Below are positions 1 through 13,083 of a stretch of 13,931 nt of DNA, in pieces (the first letter of the stretch is position 1; each line of letters begins with the position of its first letter). The notes beneath the pieces are model-generated. The model was not told where the DNA came from. It made no database searches and worked only from the letters and a program-made list of their open reading frames with translations. Origin of the DNA: a virus (taxonomy: Duplodnaviria; Heunggongvirae; Uroviricota; Caudoviricetes); the IMG/VR virus record IMGVR_UViG_2728369553_000003; one strand, given 5' to 3'. The position numbers and the translations under genes were made by a program.

Positions 1-1734
1 TCTCGTACAGCATGGCTCTGCCAACCGCCATAATCAGCGCAACTGCACCATCGATTTTGTTTTCCGCCTGCTCTTTGACGGGCTTCACCACATCATCGTT
101 ACCCGGAATGGTTTTGCCGACCACGTTGCCGATACACCAGGTCATGATGGGATTGCCATCATGATGAAAGCGCCCCGATTCAATTGCCGCTTCCAGCTCT
201 TTCATCGGGTCGGACATGTTGGTGTAGTTCTGAATGATAGTGATGGGGTTCAGGTCTTCATCAGCAAGGTCATGTGACAACCCGGTCGCCCCGAAGGGGT
301 CGATGGGTGACTCACTGACCGGGCTGATTTTGTTCGCCGCTTTGGCCTCCTCGAGGATGTAGCGATAATCCACCTCCGCACCATCGGTAACGGTCAGAAC
401 GCCCATTTCCACCCATTTCTGAAAGCGTTCGGCTGTCCGTCGATCTTCATTTTTCTCGACGCTGTACACCGTGTCATACGGTACCCAGAAACGCGGGGCC
501 ACACTGTAGTAATGCGTTTTACCGTCAATCTCGCGGGTATAAAGTCGCGCCATGCTGTTCATATCCAGCTTACGCGCCAGGTCAAAGGCCAGAATGCACG
601 GCTGCCCCTCGAACTGCTCAAGAGTCAGTGATTTATCCTCGCAGCTCTGCCAGCTCACCAGATTGAAATACGCCGAACGCGCCGACACCCAGATATTGAG
701 GTGTTTTGTTTTAAAGACGTTTGCCAGACGGGCGTTATTTTTCGCACGCTNNNNNNNNNNNNNNNNNNNNNNNNNNNNNNNNNNNNNNNNNNNNNNNNNN
801 NNNNNNNNNNNNNNNNNNNNNNNNNNNNNNNNNNNNNNNNNNNNNNNNNNNNNNNNNNNNNNNNNNNNNNNNNNNNNNNNNNNNNNNNATCGCCTTCGTC
901 AACGGTATAGATGATCCCGAACAGTTCATCGTTGGGTACCGACCCGTTGAGCATCTCGATAACTTCCCGCCGCTTGTCGTAGCACGGCCCCTCAATGTTG
1001 TACCCGGCAGTAGTAATGGCCCACATCAGTGGCTGACGTCGCGCCCCCATCCCGGTAAGCATCGTGGTGTAAAGCGCATCGGTGGCGTGCTCGTGATATT
1101 CATCCACCACCGCACAGTGGGGTGATGAACCATCACCGGGGTTACCGATCAGCGGTTCAAAACGCGCACCATCCTCCGGACGGTTCATGTTTGAGGCGTT
1201 AACCTCAATCCCGAACGCTTCCGTCAGCATGGGTGTGCGTTTACACATCAGTCTTGCCGGACGAAAGACTTCCCATGCCTGTTTCTCCGTCGTGGCACCG
1301 GAATACACTTCCGCGCCGAACTCGTTATCACAGGCAAAACAATACAGGGCGACACCGGCAGAGATTGCCGATTTGCCGTTCTTACGGGGGATTTCGGTAT
1401 ACACCTCACGGAAGCGGCGCAGCCGGGAGCCTTTATTGACCCAGCCAAACGCGCAGCAGATCACAAAGAGCTGCCACAGCTCCAGCGTGATGGGCATCCT
1501 CTTAAATGCCCACTCACCCTTGGTGTGCGGCAACAGCTGAATAAATTTAGCGGCCCGTTCAGCCAGGTCCTTGTCGAAGCGGTAACGAAACGACTTACTT
1601 TTTTCCGCCATCAGGTCATCAAGATGCCGCTGGCAGGCCTGAATCACAAACTGGCAGGCCACAATCTTTCCGCGCACGACATCACGGGCATACTGATTGG
1701 CAGCATTTACGTTGGGGTAAGATTTCCGGCTCAT
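1..1734 (-). CDS. Phage terminase large subunit (ATPase/nuclease), split by assembly gap 751-888; C-terminus runs off the window
   Basis: Minus ORF with ATG at 1732-1734 overlapping the TerS stop (ATGA). Walker A (EIPRKNGKS) and Walker B (AVVDEYHEH) are present in the translation. After the N-run the protein continues in a different minus frame to the window edge (1-60 translates as [19 protein letters not shown]), so the gap length is not real. Confidence 0.85.
751..888. other. Assembly gap (138 N) inside the terminase large subunit gene
   Basis: Run of N; the reading frame differs on either side. Confidence 0.95.
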
Positions 1735-2808: not shown

Positions 2809-2909
2809 ATATCTTGAAGGTGAATACTTATTGTCTTATCTATCCACGGGAAACATTAAGATTATTACACCCGTTAGTTGGGAAATAAAACAAAATGCAG
2901 GTGGTTTAT

Positions 2910-3134
2910 TTATTCTTTGCTGATTGCTTTCTGAATGGCATCGGCTAATGGTTCAATTAAGCCAATAGCTGCTTTTAATTCCTGTTCAAATTTTGCACTT
3001 GTAGCCTGACCACCTGCAGAAGAAAGTGAGGCCTTAACTAATTCAAGGGCAGCTTGAACAGCTATAACCCTCTGTTTTTGAGCTTGAGTTACAGGCTGAG
3101 CACCTATTCCTGAAGGGAAATAATTCTCTAACAT
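2910..3134 (-). CDS. Hypothetical 74-aa protein in an AT-rich moron cassette downstream of Rz
   Basis: ATG at 3132-3134 with a strong GGAGG SD 5 nt upstream. AT-rich relative to flanking phage genes. Followed by a terminator hairpin. Helical, no signal peptide. Confidence 0.6.
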   Translation of the reverse strand: MLENYFPSGIGAQPVTQAQKQRVIAVQAALELVKASLSSAGGQATSAKFEQELKAAIGLIEPLADAIQKAISKE

Positions 3135-3401
3135 TACAACCTCCGTATTAAAAAGTGAGGTTACACATTACCCTTAAGATTACTCTTAGTGAAGAGGTAT
3201 CTCATAATTATCACCCTTACCAATAACGCTTGATGAAATTTGTAATGGACTGGCTCTTATTTCAACGCAACCACTTACCGCGCGCCAGATGCTTAACCTC
3301 AAACATTAGCAATGAGATGTTTAATCTGAATCCACTCCAGAAGTAATCACCACTCTGTCTACAGGGCCTGATGTGAAGGATGATGAGTAAAATTATCGCT
3401 A

Positions 3402-3863
3402 TCATCGAAGGCATTGCGTCCTGATGTACTCCTGCAGGTAGTTAACCTGTGCGGTTATCCTGTCGATTCCACTTCGGAGACGGTAATAATTGAGTTCAGC
3501 ATCTGCTGTAAGTCCTGGGCTTTCTCCATCGCCCATGCCGCTGGCTCTGGTCGTTGATTTTGCACAGGTGGCGGCGACTTGCAGGCGCTTACGCCCAGAA
3601 GAAACATCAGCACGGAGACTTTCGATAGTCGCGTTAGCATCAGCAAGCTCCTTTGTGTATCTGGCGTCAAGTTCTGCTACGTCACGTTGACGCTTCTGCA
3701 TATCAGAGATAGTCGCCATAGCCGAATCTAATGCCATAGCATTCTCATCACGCTGCTTTTTGTATTCGATGGCTTTGCTGTGGTAATAATTTGCTGAACA
3801 GATAAAAGAACCAATGACAGTAACGAAGAATGCAGCGATAACCAGCTTATAGCTCAACTTCAT
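3402..3863 (-). CDS. Rz: Rz i-spanin
   Basis: N-terminal TM segment, then a coiled-coil region with strong similarity to lambda Rz (AQRD.NA..L..A.A.I.DMQ.RQRDVA.LDA.YTKELADA). Overlaps the 3' end of the endolysin gene. Confidence 0.9.
   Translation of the reverse strand: MKLSYKLVIAAFFVTVIGSFICSANYYHSKAIEYKKQRDENAMALDSAMATISDMQKRQRDVAELDARYTKELADANATIESLRADVSSGRKRLQVAATCAKSTTRASGMGDGESPGLTADAELNYYRLRSGIDRITAQVNYLQEYIRTQCLR
3455..3640 (-). CDS. Rz1: Rz1 o-spanin lipoprotein, embedded in the +1 frame of Rz
   Basis: ATG at 3638-3640 with a GGAG 8 nt upstream. Signal peptide with lipobox (LLGVSAC), then a proline-rich segment (KSPPPVQNQRPEPAAWAM) like lambda Rz1. The tracker start at 3670 is TTG. 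Confidence 0.75.
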   Translation of the reverse strand: MLTRLSKVSVLMFLLGVSACKSPPPVQNQRPEPAAWAMEKAQDLQQMLNSIITVSEVESTG

Positions 3864-4323
3864 TTACCACCCCGCCAGCCTCTTTGAATCGGGCAATCAG
3901 GTCACCGATTTTATGTTCATACTGACCGTAACCAGCGCCCGGCAGTGAAGCCCAGATATTGCTGCAACGATCGATAGCCTGACGAATATCGCCGCGATCA
4001 ATCATCGGTAAAGCGCCACGCTCTTTAATCTGCTGCAATGCCACAGCATCCTGGCTTTTTGGAGAGAAGTCTTTCAGCCCAAGCTGCTTGCGGTAAGCAT
4101 CCCACCAGCGTGAAAGAAGTTGATAACGGCCTGCAGCTGTTGATTTGAGTTTGGGGTTTAGCGTGACAAGTTTGCGAGGGTGATCGGAGTAATCAGTGAA
4201 GAGTTCACCACCGACAATAATATCATAACCGTGGTTACGTGTCGGTTGTCGCCCGTTATCCGTTCCTTCTGACCATGCCACCATATCGAGGAAAGCTTTA
4301 CGCTGAGGATTAAGATTTTGCAT
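3847..4323 (-). CDS. R: Endolysin, lambda R-type lytic transglycosylase
   Basis: 158 aa, near-identical over most of its length to lambda R as recalled (QRKAFLDM.AWSEGTDNGRQ.TRNHGYD.IVGGELFTDYSDHPRKLVTLNPKLKST.AGRYQLLSRWWDAYRKQLGLKDFSPKSQDAVALQQIKERGALPMIDRGDIRQAIDRCSNIWASLPGAGYGQ). Confidence 0.95.
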   Translation of the reverse strand: MQNLNPQRKAFLDMVAWSEGTDNGRQPTRNHGYDIIVGGELFTDYSDHPRKLVTLNPKLKSTAAGRYQLLSRWWDAYRKQLGLKDFSPKSQDAVALQQIKERGALPMIDRGDIRQAIDRCSNIWASLPGAGYGQYEHKIGDLIARFKEAGGVVNEVEL

Positions 4324-4615
4324 TTTTCACCCCTGTCAGTCGTTCCCAGAAGTACGTCAGTGCAACCGAACCCATCGCACCACTAATCCCCGCTGTCGCG
4401 AGAATCATGTAAATACTGAATCCACTTTCGATGCTGATCAGGCCACCAATAACACCGGTGAATCCTGATACCACTATCTGAGCCAGAGCATTTATCCAAC
4501 TCCACGTTGCTTTACTCTGCTTCACATCTATCAGGTAGCGGACCAGACCGCCCCAACCTGCGATGATCAGCAAAACGAGCCAGAACGCTCCAGCAAGATT
4601 CTCTTTTTCGTGCAT
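4310..4615 (-). CDS. Holin (class I-like, three predicted TM segments), not lambda S-like
   Basis: Three hydrophobic segments in about 100 aa, directly upstream of and overlapping the endolysin gene. The ORF is open up to the ATG at 4712-4714, but that start has no SD and adds 33 non-hydrophobic residues; the ATG at 4613-4615 gives a typical holin length. Start is uncertain. Confidence 0.7.
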   Translation of the reverse strand: MHEKENLAGAFWLVLLIIAGWGGLVRYLIDVKQSKATWSWINALAQIVVSGFTGVIGGLISIESGFSIYMILATAGISGAMGSVALTYFWERLTGVKNAKS

Positions 4616-4732
4616 ATGAATAGCCGCAGTTTCGCCTCCGACAGAAAATCGGAGCGTGAAATGATATGTTGATTTATTATTAATTCGAAAATTACATTCT
4701 AATTCATCAGGCATTGATGATTTTATAATAAT

Positions 4733-4755
4733 AAAGGCCGTTCGTTACGGCCTTT
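4733..4755 (-). terminator. Rho-independent terminator after the acidic moron gene
   Basis: Perfect 8-bp stem AAAGGCCG / CGGCCTTT with a 7-nt loop, flanked by A/T-rich runs on both sides, 12 nt downstream of the moron stop. Confidence 0.6.
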
Positions 4756-4766
4756 ATTATTGATAT

Positions 4767-5102
4767 TTATTTTACATCCCAAGGTAGTTCCTCAAGAGAG
4801 AAGACTAATTCATTATCAATGATTTCGTATTCTGCATAACCTTCAACCTCTCCTGAGAAGTTATTGTCAACGCATCCTTCATAATAGCTATATGGTGCTA
4901 TAAAGTGAAACCCATATTCATCTATCTCTGTGATTTCAAAATTGTAGTAATCGTAAGAATATCGAATATCATCATCAGAAATAGAACTAAGTACATAGTT
5001 ATTAAATTTATCGGAATGCTTAACGATAAGCTCTGACAACGCGTCAAGATTCTCTGGAGAGATATTTCCTAACGGTAATCTGTACTCAACGGCATTAATC
5101 AT
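4767..5102 (-). CDS. Hypothetical highly acidic 111-aa protein; moron between the Q-like gene/tR' and the holin
   Basis: ATG at 5100-5102 with a GGAGG 4 nt upstream. AT-rich. About 24 D/E against 5 K/R; no signal peptide or TM. Flanked by its own candidate promoter and terminator. Confidence 0.7.
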   Translation of the reverse strand: MINAVEYRLPLGNISPENLDALSELIVKHSDKFNNYVLSSISDDDIRYSYDYYNFEITEIDEYGFHFIAPYSYYEGCVDNNFSGEVEGYAEYEIIDNELVFSLEELPWDVK

Positions 5103-5128
5103 ACAACCTCCTTTTTAACTGATATGAG

Positions 5129-5157
5129 GTTATATAATGTGTTTCAGTACAAGTAAA
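5129..5157 (-). promoter_or_regulatory. Candidate sigma70 promoter for the acidic moron
   Basis: Minus strand TTTACT-17nt-TATAAC upstream of the moron SD. Overlaps the T-tract of the tR'-like terminator. Confidence 0.3.
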
Positions 5158-5182
5158 TAAAAACCCGCTCAACAGCGGGTTC
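5152..5182 (-). terminator. tR'-like rho-independent terminator downstream of the late promoter
   Basis: 9-bp stem AAACCCGCT / AGCGGGTTT with loop CAAC at 5161-5182, followed on the minus strand by a T-rich run, about 40-60 nt downstream of the predicted late transcription start. Confidence 0.55.
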
Positions 5183-5227
5183 GTGAAAATTATCAACGGC
5201 AGACATACAAAGCCCATCGTTGAGAAA

Positions 5228-5256
5228 ATCTTATCCATATTTTTTGAAAAATGCAA
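5228..5256 (-). promoter_or_regulatory. pR'-like late promoter (the Q engagement site would overlap)
   Basis: Minus strand TTGCAT-17nt-TAAGAT immediately downstream of the Q-like stop at 5288-5290. The arrangement promoter, short leader, terminator, lysis genes matches lambdoid late control. Confidence 0.5.
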
Positions 5257-5287
5257 GCTTCATGTCGCCATCTTCGGCGAAAATCAC

Positions 5288-6040
5288 TTATCTCGTCACC
5301 TTTCTCAATTGCGTTTCAGCATATGCTTCTTCCTGCCAGCACTTTGTTACTAGTTTATCAATTACGTCTGCATATCCTTTGTACCACTGATAATCAGTCA
5401 GGTCTGGAACCAGCTTCTGGACATGACGTCGTGCCAGTGTAGTTGGTAAACGGCTAAACCGGTTTCCATTGCAACGCCCACAAATCTTATAAACAGGCGT
5501 GCCATGAAGCCGGGTCCTTTTTTCATCCAGGACAATACCTTTACCCTTACACCCTCTGCACGCTGTGCTGACTTCTCCCTTACCATGACAATGCTGACAT
5601 AGTTCCTTCACCCACTCTTCCTTGATAACAGATTCCCCGCTTCTGGAGTGTTTCACCACCTCGCGCAATACATTATGAAATCCAGTACCAGCACAATGCT
5701 CACAGCGAGCCTTACTTGCCGCAGACCTGGAATAATCAGCAAAGGCAAAATTCACAAGGTAAGGAATGATCTGTAGCCGGGTTTCTTCACTCAATTTATT
5801 CAATGTCGGGTTATCCAGTGCCATCGCGTAATTGAGCAGACCTTCAATCGCAAACTGAGGATCCTGAACACCAACTTTTGCCAGGAATAAGGCAAACCCA
5901 AGCGGTGCTTTCGACTGCACCATCCCCTGCGCAGCCATCACATCCGTAATCGTTAAACCACCAGAGCCTGTCGCCGGTGCGTCATCGCTCAGTTTTGGAG
6001 ATTTCGGGGAGTAATATTTCGGTAAGGCTTCAAGGTTCAT
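5288..6040 (-). CDS. Putative late antiterminator Q-like protein (250 aa, four CxxCxGxG zinc-finger repeats)
   Basis: Position immediately upstream of the pR'/tR'-like elements and the lysis cassette. Cys-rich repeats CEHCAGTG, CQHCHGKG, CRGCKGKG, CGRCNGN. ATG at 6038-6040 with a GGAGAA SD. Family assignment rests on context and recall. Confidence 0.55.
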   Translation of the reverse strand: MNLEALPKYYSPKSPKLSDDAPATGSGGLTITDVMAAQGMVQSKAPLGFALFLAKVGVQDPQFAIEGLLNYAMALDNPTLNKLSEETRLQIIPYLVNFAFADYSRSAASKARCEHCAGTGFHNVLREVVKHSRSGESVIKEEWVKELCQHCHGKGEVSTACRGCKGKGIVLDEKRTRLHGTPVYKICGRCNGNRFSRLPTTLARRHVQKLVPDLTDYQWYKGYADVIDKLVTKCWQEEAYAETQLRKVTR

Positions 6041-6053
6041 GCTCGTTCTCCAC

Positions 6054-6985
6054 TTACGCCAGTACGCCTATTGCCAGCGCACGATCGATAAAACGAAATA
6101 TCAGCTCCAGCTGGGAACCATACTTCTCTTCAAATGCCACGGTATCCGCATGCAGCTCGTCGTGATGCTTTCTGCACAAAGGCAACACAAAGAGGTCATG
6201 CGCTTTTGTACCCATTCCCCCCTGACCGTGGCCTATCAGGTGGTGGGGATCATCAGCAGGCTTTCCACAACATGCACACGGCTGTGTCTTAACCCAGCGT
6301 GTGTACTTTTCATTAACCCAGCGGCGACGTTTTGGGCGTAACATAAAAGACTCCGGCGACTCCGGATCCACTTTCAGCGCCAGCACCTTTTTCACCTTAT
6401 CCTGGATGATGCTGGTGGCAGGAACCGAAGGCACAAGGTCACTTTCCCGGGTGACAGACGGCACAACAGGCTTCGGTAATCTCAGTGCCTTACGGGCTGC
6501 ACTTTCCGGTAAGGCATCCGCCAGGTCATTACGAATCAGCCACCAGCACAGTTCCGGCATTGTCACAACGTGACTATCATCAAAACCGAGATCCCGACGC
6601 ACAACAGACAACACCCAGCGGGCACAGTTATCCGTTGCCATTGATTCCAGCCGTTCCGTGAACTGATCGCGCAGCTGGTTATCGCAGTGCCAGCACAGAC
6701 GGATTGCGCCCGGCGCGTGTCGCATTGTTGTCATGTTCTCGCTGTGCCAGTCGGAATGAGGCCACTGGCAGCCTTTTTCACGAAGTAACCAGCTTTCAAG
6801 ACATTCCACGCCACCAGCACGACGGATCACTGCCTCATTGCGGAACACGGCCCGAACGTCAGGATCATCCGCCAGCGGTTGTGATGCCGCCGGAACAGCA
6901 CCACTGGCGAAAGATGAATAACGTTCCGGCTCAGGCTCCAGCAGGACACGCCCCTGCATAAACAGGGGCATCAGCTCTGAACCTG
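6054..6985 (-). CDS. DUF968-like protein (N-terminus hidden in assembly gap)
   Basis: Open minus frame from the gap edge to the stop at 6054-6056. C-terminal motif CACCGKPADDPHHLIGHGQGGMGTKAHDLFVLPLCRKHHDELH recalled as characteristic of DUF968 prophage proteins. Probably a separate gene from the KilA-N ORF, though the tracker fuses them across the N-run. Confidence 0.5.
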
Positions 6986-7111
6986 NNNNNNNNNNNNNNN
7001 NNNNNNNNNNNNNNNNNNNNNNNNNNNNNNNNNNNNNNNNNNNNNNNNNNNNNNNNNNNNNNNNNNNNNNNNNNNNNNNNNNNNNNNNNNNNNNNNNNNN
7101 NNNNNNNNNNN
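6986..7111. other. Assembly gap (126 N) hiding the boundary between the KilA-N and DUF968 coding regions
   Basis: Run of N. Confidence 0.95.
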
Positions 7112-7874
7112 GGAATCGGGATTCGAAGAAATGCGGCTGCGTCTCACGCGGATTTGCGGGACTGGTGATATTCTTGCCGAACATGCAGCCTTTCGCTGTC
7201 AGCGACCAGAATTTTTTGATGTTGTTAATCGCTGTACGGCTGTATCGTTCGCGCTGTTCGACGATCCCCAGCTTCGCCATCTGGTGATATGCCTGATTAG
7301 CCGTAAGGCGGATACCATACTGCTTCAGCAGTGCACTCAGTGACAGCGTGGGGCGGCTTGAGCCATCAGGCGCGTCAGCAGGAGCATCAATGGCATAGCG
7401 CGGTGCCAGATTCGGTAAGCCAACAGCCTCCTGAAGTTTCTGACAGGCTCCAAGCACTGAAGAGTTAGACAGATTTAACTCCCGGCGCATAAAGTCCAGC
7501 AGAATCACACCAGCCTGCATCTTGTCAGCAGCCTGTCCGGATAATTTTTCCGGTGCGCTGGTTACCATGTCGAAAGTACGGATCACCTTCAGATGGAATG
7601 ACGGGCTGATCCACATTGCATAGGCATACACCAGTTCTTTGCAGACATACGTCCCCTGGTTATTTCCGCCACGAATAACGTTAACTGGCTCTATATTGAC
7701 CGAGTTGCAAATCTGCAACTCGCTTATTAAACGCTCAGTTTGCTCATTGCGGAGCCAGAATGCAGGCTTATGCTTATCCAGAGAACCGGCAGCCCTGTGC
7801 AGATCGTTCAGGCTGTAACGCCCATAAGCATCACGACGAACTTCAATACCATCAATGACCATCAGATTATTCAT
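7112..7874 (-). CDS. KilA-N domain antirepressor-like protein (C-terminus hidden in gap)
   Basis: ATG at 7872-7874 with a GAGGAG 9 nt upstream. N-terminus MNNLMVIDGIEVRRDAYGRYSLNDLHRAAG... is KilA-N-like, followed by an antirepressor-like C-region. The open frame runs into the N-run. Confidence 0.6.
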
Positions 7875-9746: not shown

Positions 9747-10837
9747 TCACCCCCTGAATCCTGCCGGGATCTGGCTGTAGTCCACGTTGTCGTAACTGGC
9801 TTTGAAGTACGGGTCTTCGCGTTTTTCGGTGTACGTGCTGACGGACGGCGATAAGCGCAGGGAAAGCTCATCCCATTTTTCCCGCAGCTTCGACGGGCTG
9901 AGCACGTTACGGCACCAGAACGGATCGCGGCTGACGCGGCTGTACATCTCGCAGATTTGTTTGTGAGTACGACCATCCTGCACACACATCAGGCGAATTT
10001 CGTTTGCCCAGGCTGTCCAGTTCGGTTCTTTGGGACGAACCACCTCGCCGTCACATTCGGCGGCTTGCTCGTACAGGGCGATGATTTTTTTCCAGAGCCA
10101 CTGTGCGCAGGTCAAATCATCCTGCGTTCCCCACTGGCGCTTTTTAGGGCTGAATACAACCGCATCAGGATGGCGAGTTAAAAAATCCTGTTCATCCGTC
10201 TGCGTGTCCGGTTGCGAAGCGTCCGGACGAGAAGGTTTTTTATCTGACGGATCATGTTTTGATTTTACTGACGGATCCCCGCCAGATTCTGACGGGTGAA
10301 AACCCGCTTTTTTGCCAGATTTCNNNNNNNNNNCTCCTGTTCAGCCGTCTGCGTGTCCGGTTGCGAAGCGTCCGGACGAGAAGTTTTTTTATCTGACGGA
10401 TCATGTTTTGATTTTACTGACGGATCCCCGCCAGATTCTGACGGGTGAAAACCCGCTTTTTTGCCAGATTTCGACGCATCAAATTTTGACGGGTCAGATT
10501 TTGATGCGTCAGATTTTGACGGGTCAGAATCTGACAGTTGAGAAAATGCCGCTGCCTGAAGCTTCGCAACGTTAAGCTGATAAACATTCGACGCATTGCG
10601 GTTACCCTGGCGACGCGCCTTACGCGTTAACCAGCCTTCTGCTTCCAGCCGTGCGATAGCCGTCCTGACGGTACTCATCCCCGCGCCAATCTGACGGGCA
10701 ATAGTTTCAATTGATGGCCAGCACACACCTTCGTCATTACTGAAATCAGCCAGGCGGGCCATAATTGCCACGCTGGATAATTTCATGCCTGACGCAGCGC
10801 AACCATCCCATACATAGCCGGTTAATTTAGTGCTCAT
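9747..10837 (-). CDS. O-like replication initiator, apparently split by a 10-N gap and an unmerged 138-bp contig overlap
   Basis: N-terminal winged-helix domain (10561-10837), then a repeat-encoded SDPSK/SDASK linker, then a C-terminal domain (9747-10185). The tracker reports two ORFs (10265..10837 and 9747..10115, the latter with a TTG start). Collapsing the duplicated 138-bp copies restores one in-frame ORF of about 313 aa. Confidence 0.65.
10186..10472. repeat. 138-bp direct repeat (10186-10323 and 10335-10472) flanking a 10-N gap; probable unmerged contig overlap
   Basis: The copies are identical except for two positions (10195 T vs 10344 G; 10235 G vs 10384 T). The 149-nt offset breaks the frame as presented, but the frame is restored if one copy is removed. 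Confidence 0.7.
10391..10540. repeat. Iteron-like repeats inside the O-like gene (candidate origin of replication)
   Basis: Five tandem 15-bp units at 10464-10538 (consensus about TCAGATTTTGACGGG), plus spaced CTGACGG motifs at about 10393, 10417 and 10437. Lambda ori likewise lies in iterons within O. Confidence 0.5.
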
Positions 10838-12068: not shown

Positions 12069-12695
12069 ATGGAAACGGTTGGTCAGCGTATAAAAGCTCT
12101 GAGAAGAGTTACCGGAACGTCCCAGAAAGAATTGGGTAAATTTTGTGGAGTAAGCGACGTTGCTGTGGGGTACTGGGAGAAAGACATCAATACCCCTGGT
12201 GGGGAGGCACTTTCGAAATTAGCGAAGTTCTTCAATACGTCAATAGATTACATTCTTTATGGTGCTGAGTTTGAAGGCAAACTCGTCACAAACATGCGCA
12301 GAGTTCCTGTAATATCGTGGGTTCAGGCTGGGCAGTTTACTGAGTGCAGGGCAGCAGAAGTGTTTAGTGAAGTGGACAAGTGGGTAGATACATCATTAAA
12401 GATTGGTGATAACTCATTTGCATTAGAGGTTAAAGGTGACTCCATGACTAACCCTAATGGCCTCCCAACAATACCAGAAGGCGCAACAGTGATTGTAGAT
12501 CCAGATGCAGAACCTCGTCATGGAAAAATAGTCATCGCTCGACTTGATGGAACAAACGAAGCTACAGTAAAAAAATTAGTCATCGATGGCCCTCAAAAGT
12601 TTTTAGTGCCATTAAATCCTCGGTATCCCAACATCCCTATCAATGGTAATTGCCTTATCATTGGTGTAGTCAAAGGAGTTCAATACGAACTCTAA
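12069..12695 (+). CDS. cI: cI-like prophage repressor (XRE HTH plus S24 LexA-type autopeptidase domain)
   Basis: N-terminal HTH (QKELGKFCGVSDVAVGYWE), Ala-Gly cleavage site (VQAGQF), catalytic Ser in GDSM and Lys in TVKKL. Divergent from cro. Confidence 0.9.
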   Translation: METVGQRIKALRRVTGTSQKELGKFCGVSDVAVGYWEKDINTPGGEALSKLAKFFNTSIDYILYGAEFEGKLVTNMRRVPVISWVQAGQFTECRAAEVFSEVDKWVDTSLKIGDNSFALEVKGDSMTNPNGLPTIPEGATVIVDPDAEPRHGKIVIARLDGTNEATVKKLVIDGPQKFLVPLNPRYPNIPINGNCLIIGVVKGVQYEL

Positions 12696-12777: not shown

Positions 12778-12879
12778 TTATATCAAAGATAACGAACAGG
12801 CAGGACGCCCACGAAGTAGCCGCCGGTGGCGTATGAATGACCGGATGATTCGTTAAATACTATGTGTAAGAGAGCGCAA

Positions 12880-13083
12880 ATGAACCGTTATTTCACATGC
12901 TCGTTTTGTGGAGCAAACGAGCTGCAGGCAAAAAAAATCATCGCCAAAGGCGGAAAAGATGAAGTTGCTATCTGCTCTGAGTGCGTAGTCTTGTGTGTCG
13001 GGGCATTAATCAATATCAGCACAACTATTCAGTTCACACCAAATGAGAATGCGCCTTTAGATGCGCGGAAATCTGGAGGTTAA
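12880..13083 (+). CDS. Small ClpX-type C4 zinc-finger protein (67 aa)
   Basis: YFTCSFCG...KKIIAKGGKDEVAICSECVVLC matches the ClpX N-terminal zinc-binding domain pattern (CSFCG...ICDEC). ATG at 12880-12882 is preceded by AAGAGAG; the tracker start at 12862 lacks an SD. Confidence 0.6.
   Translation: MNRYFTCSFCGANELQAKKIIAKGGKDEVAICSECVVLCVGALINISTTIQFTPNENAPLDARKSGG

What the first reader, a model, noticed from the sequence alone, without database searches (positions are those of the whole stretch)
4728..5160. Highly acidic 111-aa moron in the toxin/cargo slot between the Q-like gene and the lysis cassette
In lambdoid phages the slot between tR' and the holin is the classic cargo position (Stx toxins sit there). 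Here it holds a complete cassette: a candidate sigma70 promoter (TTTACT-17-TATAAC), a strong SD (GGAGG), an AT-rich ORF and a perfect 8-bp terminator hairpin. The protein has about 24 acidic against 5 basic residues, is Tyr-rich, and has no signal peptide or TM. That composition fits a nucleic-acid mimic (anti-restriction or anti-defence) or an orphan immunity protein for a nuclease toxin. It would be expressed in the lysogen from its own promoter and strongly on induction via Q read-through.
Basis: partly seen in the sequence, partly recalled or inferred. Interest (0 to 1): 0.65.

Follow-up and report, generated by a model that had tools for sequence, protein, structure and literature searches.

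The report
Acidic orphan gene before phage holin
A small, self-contained gene cassette in an E. coli prophage, sitting between the late-gene switch (Q) and the lysis genes, encodes a very acidic protein from a conserved family that nobody has characterised; it is a real and well-behaved accessory gene, but its function remains a guess.

The parts
5288..6040 (-). Q antiterminator gene (SfV-type, 250 aa)
   Evidence: PF03589 Antiterm E 3.8e-54 and phrog_127 E 4.7e-109. About 96% nucleotide identity to SfV Q.
5228..5256 (-). Candidate late promoter pR' (TTGCAT-17-TAAGAT) between the Q stop codon and tR'; inferred only
   Evidence: Sequence read. It is a weak consensus match and the scanner did not list it. 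Its placement is by analogy with lambda pR'.
5161..5182 (-). tR'-type intrinsic terminator of the Q module (9-bp GC-rich stem plus T-run)
   Evidence: Scanner hit. dG -15.2, z -4.9. The equivalent hairpin is annotated as a terminator in SfV. Backbone homology ends just after it.
4648..5158 (-). Accessory cassette (moron), about 0.5 kb, low GC
   Evidence: Homology to prophages lacking the gene stops at 4647 (holin side) and about 5148-5159 (Q side). Cargo-less Q-holin junctions are seen. The ORF is 34% GC.
5129..5157 (-). Candidate sigma70 promoter of the cassette, TTTACT-17-TATAAC
   Evidence: Coordinates. It matches 9/12 but lacks the -7 T and was not listed by the scanner. Hexamers and spacing are invariant in the Salmonella and IMG/VR orthologous cassettes while the spacer diverged.
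5107..5111 (-). Shine-Dalgarno GGAGG, 4 nt before the ATG
   Evidence: Conserved in the Salmonella cassette.
4767..5102 (-). ORF111: 111-aa acidic cytoplasmic protein, member of PHROG 13663 (RefSeq WP_000606308.1, 'hypothetical protein')
   Evidence: Purifying selection. AlphaFold pLDDT 90.4.
4726..4762 (-). Intrinsic (bidirectional-type) terminator of the cassette, a perfect 15-bp stem that insulates the holin from the cassette promoter
   Evidence: dG -20.2, z -7.3. Non-homologous terminators occupy the same place in other cassettes.
4310..4615 (-). Holin (LydA family), first gene of the lysis cassette
   Evidence: PF16083 E 1.5e-21 and phrog_785. The RefSeq start corresponds to 4615. The upstream ATG at 4714 lies in cassette DNA.
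3847..4323 (-). Endolysin (annotated GH24 lysozyme)
   Evidence: RefSeq annotation of the identical locus. No Pfam hit.
3402..3863 (-). Rz-type spanin
   Evidence: PF03245 E 9e-38.

Best explanation
The region is a classic moron: a ~0.5-kb, low-GC, self-contained cassette (promoter-like element, strong SD, one ORF, strong terminator) inserted just downstream of the Q-dependent terminator tR' and upstream of the holin of an SfV/e14-like E. coli prophage.

How it is probably expressed (inferred):
- In the lysogen, a weak constitutive or regulated sigma70 promoter inside the cassette makes a monocistronic mRNA that ends at the 15-bp hairpin. The lysis genes therefore stay silent.
- After induction, Q-modified RNA polymerase starting at pR' reads through tR' and the cassette terminator. 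The ORF then becomes the first and most promoter-proximal late gene.

What the product probably does (inferred, low confidence):
- It is a soluble, compact alpha+beta protein with a conserved large net negative charge and no partner gene.
- I propose it works alone and stoichiometrically, binding and blocking a basic or nucleic-acid-binding protein.
- I propose the benefit goes mainly to the cell that carries it. That would mean protection against an invader's protein, such as a superinfecting phage protein or a delivered nuclease toxin, rather than help for the phage's own lytic growth.

Shown: gene reality, accessory status, slot, family, charge conservation, fold prediction. Inferred: promoter activity, Q read-through, binding mode, beneficiary.
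For: Anatomy and accessory status:
-.

Purifying selection:
- pN 0.17 against pS 0.80, and dN/dS 0.12.

Cassette architecture conserved across diverged homologues (26-40% identity):
- tR' hairpin, about 80 nt carrying conserved -35/-10-like hexamers, the gene, then a terminator.
- The hexamers are TTTACW-17-TATAAC in one subfamily. In the other they are TTGRCA-15-TAnnnT, with the -11 A and -7 T invariant.
- The terminators are non-homologous in sequence.
- A terminator between the gene and the holin only makes sense if transcription starts inside the cassette independently of Q.

Acidity as a family trait:
- All 43 members have net charge -9 to -22.
- Only 5 columns are acidic in at least 70% of sequences. 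The bulk charge is selected rather than individual positions.

No conserved partner:
- No neighbour gene is shared across about 15 contexts.

Host benefit:
- Orphan copies outside prophages occur in at least 5 chromosomal contexts.
- One is a syntenic site next to Wzy_C/HTH_6-SIS in Erwinia tracheiphila and E. papayae, with no phage genes among the called genes within 6 kb either side in the latter.
- These copies are still under purifying selection (pN 0.20 against pS 0.70, and 0.35 against 0.89).

Defence-flavoured neighbourhood:
- In a Citrobacter prophage the slot also holds a PADLOC candidate defence gene, PDC-S42, and an orphan methyltransferase.

General background:
- Morons are expressed in lysogens and often confer phage resistance (PMC7067206).
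Against: - There is no expression data of any kind.
- The window's -10 hexamer (TATAAC) lacks the canonical final T. The consensus scan finds no excess of promoters.
- There is no hit to any known defence model (PADLOC).
- There is no credible match to any Pfam family, including the immunity families.
- The invariant polar residues (D45, R47, C77, D79, D104/E105) could equally mark a small-ligand or catalytic site.
- The strict Q-holin position in all 10 prophage lineages also fits a phage-lytic role.
- The orphan chromosomal copies may be prophage relics. A Q fragment survives near the E. tracheiphila copy.
- I could not obtain model coordinates, so the surface charge pattern was not examined.
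Confidence: 0.35

Rival explanations
1. Phage counter-defence. The protein is a nucleic-acid mimic or other inhibitor of a host nuclease-type defence (type I R-M, BREX, RecBCD and the like). It would be made from its own promoter right after DNA entry and massively from the late transcript. It might even be packaged and injected with the DNA to protect the next infection.
For: - Net charge is -19 over 111 aa. T7 Ocr has 34 acidic and 6 basic residues in 116 aa (PMC3439906).
- Acidity is conserved family-wide.
- DNA mimics have no common sequence or fold, so the absence of homology is uninformative (PMC3902945).
- The same slot holds an orphan DNA methyltransferase in SfV. In a Citrobacter prophage it holds a methyltransferase next to the homologue.
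- There is precedent for virion-packaged, injected anti-restriction proteins, T4 Ip1-3 (PMC12373910).
Against: - Known anti-restriction genes of temperate phages and plasmids are early or leading-region genes. A site behind tR' is late (own knowledge).
- Orphan chromosomal copies under purifying selection are hard to explain for a protein that disarms the cell's own defences.
- The family is absent from 50,697 deposited phage genomes.
- The DNA-like spacing of surface charges was not testable.
Confidence: 0.22
2. Orphan immunity protein in the strict sense. It would neutralise a specific delivered nuclease or other toxin domain (colicin, pyocin, CDI, Rhs or T6SS effector), with its cognate toxin encoded elsewhere or in competitors.
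For: - It is a small, acidic, cytoplasmic, single-domain protein.
- It is carried singly on mobile elements and as chromosomal orphans.
- Copies at a syntenic site diverge fast: 44% identity between two Erwinia species.
Against: - In about 15 contexts examined, none has a toxin, Rhs, CdiA, VgrG or bacteriocin gene adjacent.
- No member credibly matches any Pfam family, including the immunity families.
- No member is fused to another domain or arranged in an array. The longer predicted forms look like mis-called starts.
- The only long proteins that hit the profile are spurious repeat proteins.
Confidence: 0.1
3. Lysis-timing regulator. A cytoplasmic acidic protein would bind the charged cytoplasmic tail of the adjacent holin, acting as an antiholin-like safety catch. 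This would guard against leaky late transcription in the lysogen and set the lysis clock after induction.
For: - In all 10 prophage lineages the gene lies upstream of the holin. It is directly upstream in 7.
- The lineages are: window; L003/L004; L005; L011/L012; L015-17; L018-20, where a methyltransferase gene intervenes; L025; L026; L037; L039. Sources.
- Cytoplasmic antiholin factors exist, for example T4 RIII. P1 LydB is encoded next to LydA (own knowledge).
Against: - The neighbouring holins belong to at least 4 unrelated Pfam families: 3_3, 8, 2_1 and 2_3.
- A terminator always separates the gene from the holin.
- The cassette is dispensable. The same holin functions directly behind Q in many E. 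coli prophages.
- Orphan chromosomal copies have no holin nearby.
- Slot conservation is also what mosaic inheritance of gene order would produce without any functional link.
Confidence: 0.08
4. A small ligand-binding or enzymatic protein, such as a signal-molecule sponge, or a regulator of host physiology unrelated to conflict. It would use the pocket of an NTF2/cystatin-like roll and the invariant D45-x-R47-Y48, G76-C77-x-D79 and D104-E105-x-x-W108 residues.
For: - The invariant polar and Cys residues stand out against otherwise free sequence drift.
Against: - At 111 aa the protein is smaller than the NTF2-like chains it matched (about 110-145 aa).
- A strong conserved negative charge is unusual for a binder of anionic nucleotides.
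- No Pfam enzyme family hit was found.
Confidence: 0.1

Closest known systems
PHROG 13663 (phage protein orthologous group, function unknown)
   Same: Full-length match, E 9.4e-54, residues 1-111 of 111. All 25 diverse family members match it.
   Different: The group carries no annotation, so membership names the family without explaining it.
Morons of the lambdoid Q-to-holin cargo slot (stxAB in Stx phages; orf47 plus orf48 methyltransferase in SfV; nmpC in DLP12)
   Same: - Same slot downstream of tR' and upstream of the holin.
- Accessory presence or absence, and deviant GC.
- Own terminator; SfV annotates a terminator after orf48.
- Expected boost by Q read-through.
- The stx and DLP12 placements are from my own knowledge and PMC8065619 (listed, abstract only).
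   Different: The product is unrelated to any of these. It is a single 111-aa cytoplasmic acidic protein rather than a toxin, porin or enzyme.
T7 Ocr (gp0.3) and other DNA-mimic anti-restriction proteins (ArdA, Arn, Ugi/SAUGI)
   Same: - Similar size and extreme acidic bias: 24 acidic and 5 basic residues here, against 34 and 6 in Ocr.
- Encoded on a mobile element.
   Different: - No sequence match.
- The predicted fold is a beta-alpha-alpha-beta5 roll. Ocr is mainly helical (own knowledge).
- The gene lies behind the late terminator rather than in an early or leading region.
NTF2-like / VirB8-like / cystatin-like alpha+beta rolls
Cytoplasmic antiholin factors (T4 RIII; P1 LydB next to LydA)
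   Same: A small cytoplasmic protein encoded beside a holin. Here the holin is LydA-family.
   Different: - The family is associated with at least 4 holin families and with no holin at all in chromosomal copies.
- A terminator separates it from the holin.
- Similarity to RIII or LydB was not tested directly.
T4 internal proteins Ip1-3 (late-made, injected anti-restriction proteins)
   Same: Small late-expressed phage accessory proteins that act as stoichiometric inhibitors (PMC12373910).
   Different: - Ips carry an N-terminal capsid-targeting leader. None is known for this phage type and none is recognisable here.
- Packaging was not tested.

Membership tests
Moron (autonomous accessory transcription unit in a phage genome) | Present in some but not other closely related phage genomes, inserted between conserved genes | tested here: met
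   The cassette is absent from SfV, mEp460 and Stx2c phages with the same Q. It is also absent from O157 and H9Ecoli prophages with the same holin. It is present in 131 of 5426 E. coli genomes.
Moron (autonomous accessory transcription unit in a phage genome) | Base composition differs from its surroundings | tested here: met
   34% GC against 45-49% for the flanking genes. Homologous cassettes are 36-40% GC in loci of 50-52%.
Moron (autonomous accessory transcription unit in a phage genome) | Own terminator | tested here: met
   A 15-bp perfect hairpin, dG -20.2, z -7.3. Analogous hairpins occur in all other prophage cassettes examined.
Moron (autonomous accessory transcription unit in a phage genome) | Own promoter active in the lysogen | tested here: inconclusive
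   The sequence-level match is weak and the scanner did not flag it. The hexamers and spacing are nevertheless conserved across diverged cassettes. There are no transcript data.
PHROG 13663 | Full-length significant match to the family profile | tested here: met
   E 9.4e-54 over residues 1-111 of 111. 25 of 25 relatives match.
Ocr / ArdA anti-restriction families | Sequence match to the family models | tested here: not met
   The Pfam scan of the protein and of 24 relatives gave only single-member, sub-threshold hits and no Ocr or ArdA family. No PDB sequence match at E <= 0.1; the best is 0.18-0.21.
Ocr / ArdA anti-restriction families | Shared fold | tested here: not met
DNA-mimic proteins (functional class) | Strong net negative charge | tested here: met
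   Net -19 here, and -9 to -22 in all 43 relatives.
DNA-mimic proteins (functional class) | Surface carboxylates arranged like the phosphates of DNA, with a suitable shape (criterion quoted from PMC3902945) | not testable with these tools
   Model coordinates are not exposed, so no electrostatic surface could be computed. Only 5 alignment columns are consistently acidic.
DNA-mimic proteins (functional class) | Binds the DNA-binding site of a target protein | not testable with these tools
   This needs biochemistry or complex prediction.
Polymorphic-toxin / bacteriocin immunity proteins | Encoded next to a cognate toxin in at least some genomes | tested here: not met
   No toxin-type neighbour in about 15 contexts.
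Polymorphic-toxin / bacteriocin immunity proteins | Match to a known immunity family | tested here: not met
   No credible Pfam match for any of 25 members. The nine sub-threshold hits are single-member and none is an immunity family.
Known anti-phage defence systems (PADLOC-DB v2) | Match to a defence protein model | tested here: not met
   0 families at E <= 1.
Antiholin / lysis regulator | Consistent genetic linkage to a holin | tested here: inconclusive
   It lies upstream of a holin in 10 prophage lineages. However, the holins belong to at least 4 unrelated families, a terminator lies between, and 5 chromosomal contexts have no holin.
NTF2-like superfamily | Significant structural similarity to members | tested here: inconclusive

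The most novel reading that the evidence does not exclude
PHROG 13663 is a new, structurally unassigned family of stand-alone acidic inhibitor proteins. It would be either a prophage-borne single-gene protection factor or a new DNA-mimic counter-defence. Lambdoid phages of Enterobacterales have kept it for a long time as the first gene behind tR', under dual control: its own promoter in the lysogen and Q read-through on induction. Bacteria have repeatedly domesticated it as an orphan chromosomal gene.
Probability: 0.3. Interest if true: 0.65.

Novelty: new member of a known kind. Interest (0 to 1): 0.45.

Why it matters
- The Q-to-holin slot is where lambdoid phages carry Shiga toxin and other conversion genes.
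- This is a compact, easily testable cargo family that recurs in that slot across Escherichia, Shigella, Salmonella, Citrobacter, Enterobacter and Erwiniaceae prophages. The exact protein is on at least 1000 public contigs.
- The family has no known function, no Pfam model and no structural neighbour.
- If it proves to be a single-protein inhibitor of a phage or host nucleic-acid enzyme, it would add a new fold to the short list of acidic decoy proteins. It would also give a handle on why this slot is favoured.
- If it proves inert, it is simply one more hypothetical moron.

Tried and rejected
Searches that found nothing:
- Sequence searches against Pfam, NCBIfam, PADLOC and PDB sequences, with the single protein and with profiles, found nothing beyond PHROG 13663.
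- tblastn and blastn against 50,697 phage genomes, with three family members, found no match.
- In PLSDB the only hit is a circularised copy of the same prophage.
- Rfam and tRNA scans of the window found nothing.
- Literature searches for the accession, the PHROG id, or a described gene in this slot found nothing relevant.

Structure:
- The first AlphaFold model, built from 4 sequences (pLDDT 74), was replaced by a 26-sequence model (pLDDT 90.4).
- BFVD gave nothing at E <= 0.001 (best 0.013).
- The afdb50 library was unavailable.

Technical limits:
A narrower alignment gave only 1 species-representative genome and 2 viral contigs.

Leads rejected:
- The long proteins P0019 and P0029 that hit the profile are DUF11 or low-complexity repeat artefacts.
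- The apparent N-terminal extensions in P0006, P0018, P0024 and P0047 look like mis-called starts rather than fusions.
- A link between the antisense genes beside the Citrobacter and E. tracheiphila copies was rejected because they are not homologous.
Full report
**What is there**

The feature lies on the minus strand. ORF 4767-5102 encodes 111 aa.
- Composition is 24 D+E, 5 K+R, 12 Tyr, pI 4.05 and GRAVY -0.35.
- The highest 19-residue hydropathy window is 0.59, so there is no TM segment or signal peptide.
- GC is 33.9%, against 49.8% for the window and 45-49% for the neighbouring Q, holin, lysozyme and Rz genes.

Upstream lies the Q antiterminator gene (5288-6040, PF03589 E 3.8e-54). It is followed by a GC-rich hairpin plus T-run at 5182-5161. 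The counterpart of that hairpin is annotated as a terminator after Q in phage SfV. This is the tR'-type terminator.

Downstream of the ORF are:
- a perfect 15-bp hairpin (4726-4762; dG -20.2 kcal/mol, z -7.3);
- a LydA-family holin (4310-4615);
- a gene annotated as a GH24 lysozyme;
- an Rz spanin.

The window is 100% identical over 2809-6985 to a chromosomal prophage of E. coli ECONIH4. That prophage has an HK97-type head and P27-type terminase; the circular CX04 copy shows a sheathed, baseplate-bearing tail. RefSeq calls the ORF a hypothetical protein, WP_000606308.1.

**Is it an accessory cassette?**

Yes.
- Phages and prophages with the same Q (SfV, mEp460, Stx2c phages) match the window only from about 5159 onward.
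- Prophages with the same holin match only up to 4647.
- In two of the latter, O157:H7 TT12A and H9Ecoli, a different Q is followed directly by this holin with no gene between.
- SfV fills the slot with orf47 plus a DNA methyltransferase and a terminator.

The unit is therefore about 4648-5158, roughly 0.5 kb. It occurs in 131 of 5426 complete E. coli genomes, almost always at 99% identity or more. In E. coli and IMG/VR contigs it is always on the same prophage backbone. The exact protein is on at least 1000 public contigs, including Shigella dysenteriae, and is always labelled hypothetical.

**Is it a real gene?**

Yes.
- Against the Salmonella orthologue (72% aa identity), synonymous sites are saturated (pS 0.80) while pN is 0.17.
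- A closer pair gives dN/dS 0.12.

**Regulatory signals**

- Taken alone the promoter is weak. It lacks the final T of the -10 hexamer and the scanner did not list it. The region has no excess of promoter-like sites.
- Comparative evidence is better. In the Salmonella and IMG/VR orthologous cassettes, which sit behind a different Q family, the -35, the -10 with its flanks (TTATATAACCT), the 17-nt spacing and the SD are identical. The spacer and the stretch between the -10 and the SD have diverged.
- A second cassette subfamily (Enterobacter, Citrobacter, Duffyella, IMG/VR) shows an invariant TTGRCA, then 15 nt, then TAnnnT. It also has a palindrome just upstream.
- In every prophage cassette examined, a terminator of unrelated sequence follows the stop codon within about 15-30 nt.
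- A terminator between this gene and the holin is what one expects if transcription starts inside the cassette in the lysogen and must not reach the lysis genes.
- Q-modified polymerase is known to ignore such terminators (lambda paradigm, own knowledge). The gene should therefore also be the first late gene on induction.
- None of this was measured.

**The family**

- The protein matches PHROG 13663 (unknown function) end to end.
- It has no credible Pfam match and no NCBIfam or PADLOC match, and no PDB sequence relative.
- An exhaustive HMMER search of 1.84 billion cluster representatives found only 26 hits.
- With two word-indexed searches, this gives about 45 clusters of ~110-aa proteins. 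All tested members fall in PHROG 13663.
- Nearly invariant residues are F33, D45, R47, Y48, G76, C77, D79, Y92, D104/E105 and W108.
- Net charge is -9 to -22 in all 43 members. Only five columns are acidic in at least 70% of sequences. Overall charge is conserved while its placement is not. Tyr-richness is specific to the E. coli/Salmonella branch.
- The family is absent from 50,697 deposited phage genomes.

**Genomic contexts**

The gene lies between a Q-type gene with a tR'-like hairpin and the holin in ten independent prophage lineages: the window; L003/4; L005; L011/12; L015-17; L018-20; L025; L026; L037; L039.
- The Q proteins are of at least three kinds: PF03589, PF06530/DUF1133 and unassigned.
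- The holins belong to four Pfam families: 3_3, 8, 2_1 and 2_3.
- No other gene is shared among these contexts and no toxin is adjacent.
- In the Citrobacter prophage the slot also contains an antisense PADLOC candidate defence gene (PDC-S42, E 1.6e-31) and an N6_N4 methyltransferase.

Five further contexts are chromosomal orphans.
- Two Erwinia species carry copies at a syntenic site beside Wzy_C and HTH_6/SIS genes.
- The E. papayae site has no phage genes among the called genes within 6 kb either side.
- These copies are still under purifying selection.

**Structure**

- With 26 sequences, AlphaFold gives pLDDT 90.4 and pTM 0.81. The topology is beta1-alpha1-alpha2-beta2..beta6, an alpha+beta roll.
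- Ocr, ArdA, Ugi, Arn and Acr structures do not appear among the 60 matches listed.
- BFVD has nothing at E <= 0.001; the best is 0.013.
- The fold is thus generic or unassigned and gives no function.
- I could not access coordinates. The key DNA-mimic criterion, a DNA-like array of surface carboxylates (PMC3902945), remains untested.

**Interpretation**

The anatomy is that of a moron in the classic cargo slot. I hold this with high confidence (about 0.85).

For function, the data favour a protein that acts alone and through bulk negative charge, that is, a stoichiometric binder or decoy for a basic or nucleic-acid-binding partner.

Three observations tilt me toward a benefit for the carrying cell, namely protection from a superinfecting phage or a delivered toxin:
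- retention of orphan chromosomal copies under selection;
- the insulating terminator together with the conserved promoter-like elements;
- the defence-flavoured neighbours.

This is a low-confidence call (0.35). The rivals are:
- a phage counter-defence mimic (0.22). It is supported by the composition, the methyltransferase neighbours and the precedent of injected anti-restriction proteins (PMC12373910). It is weakened by the late position and the host-retained orphans;
- a strict orphan immunity protein (0.10; no toxin linkage anywhere);
- a holin or lysis regulator (0.08; adjacency is striking, but four unrelated holin families, an intervening terminator and holin-less orphans argue against it);
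- a small ligand-binding or enzymatic roll using the invariant D/R/C/D/E residues (0.10).

**Verdict**

- The structural reading (moron in the cargo slot) is supported.
- The functional reading is neither supported nor excluded by any test available here.
- The family is already catalogued as an unknown PHROG. It is a new, uncharacterised member of a known kind of element.
- It is a tidy experimental target of moderate interest.

Noticed in passing
window 12862-13083 (+): A 73-aa stand-alone ClpX C4-type zinc-finger ORF (PF06689, E 1.4e-10) lies immediately downstream of the S24/HTH cI-like repressor gene (12069-12695). This is the rexAB-type moron position. It could be a modulator or decoy of ClpX substrate recognition.
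   Followed up: no
window 751-888, 2761-2808, 6986-7111, 10324-10333: Runs of N (masked sequence) create artificial ORF fusions. For example, 'ORF' 6054-7874 merges the DUF968 and KilA-N genes that are separate in the identical RefSeq locus.
   Followed up: yes
L002 (NZ_CP081716.1, E. coli CX04 'plasmid unnamed3', 37,667 bp circular): This 'plasmid' is a complete circular copy of the same prophage, including the integrase and a dusA fragment. It is probably an excised or replicating phage genome in a frameshift-rich long-read assembly. That hints the prophage is active and integrates at dusA.
   Followed up: partly
L018/L019 3476-7568 (Citrobacter prophage, Q-to-holin slot): The slot is expanded into a small island. 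It holds three antisense genes, including a 289-aa PADLOC candidate defence protein PDC-S42 (E 1.6e-31), then two small ORFs, the ORF111 homologue and an N6_N4 DNA methyltransferase.
   Followed up: partly
L005 5925-5945; L025 about 1165-1185; L026 about 1385-1405 (upstream of the cassette -35): A palindrome (CATTTC..GAAATG, or ATTTCGAAAT) sits just upstream of the conserved TTGRCA in the second cassette subfamily. It may be an operator, which would mean the cassette promoter is regulated rather than constitutive.
   Followed up: no
L006-L009, L024 (Erwinia tracheiphila) and L038 (E. papayae): Orphan family members lie at a syntenic chromosomal site next to Wzy_C and HTH_6/SIS genes. They are only 44% identical between the two species. 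The E. tracheiphila copy lies in a decayed, IS-ridden prophage remnant with a Q fragment about 5 kb away.
   Followed up: partly
window 4616-4714 (-): The mechanical holin ORF starts at an ATG at 4714 (134 aa). That N-terminal extension lies in cassette DNA, since backbone homology begins at 4647. The real holin start is 4615, as in RefSeq.
   Followed up: yes
window 2910-3134 (-) and 3262-3414 (-): Two small ORFs lie between the Rz gene and the HNH/terminase genes, in another known accessory slot. One is 74 aa (phrog_5901, unknown function) and the other 50 aa.
   Followed up: no
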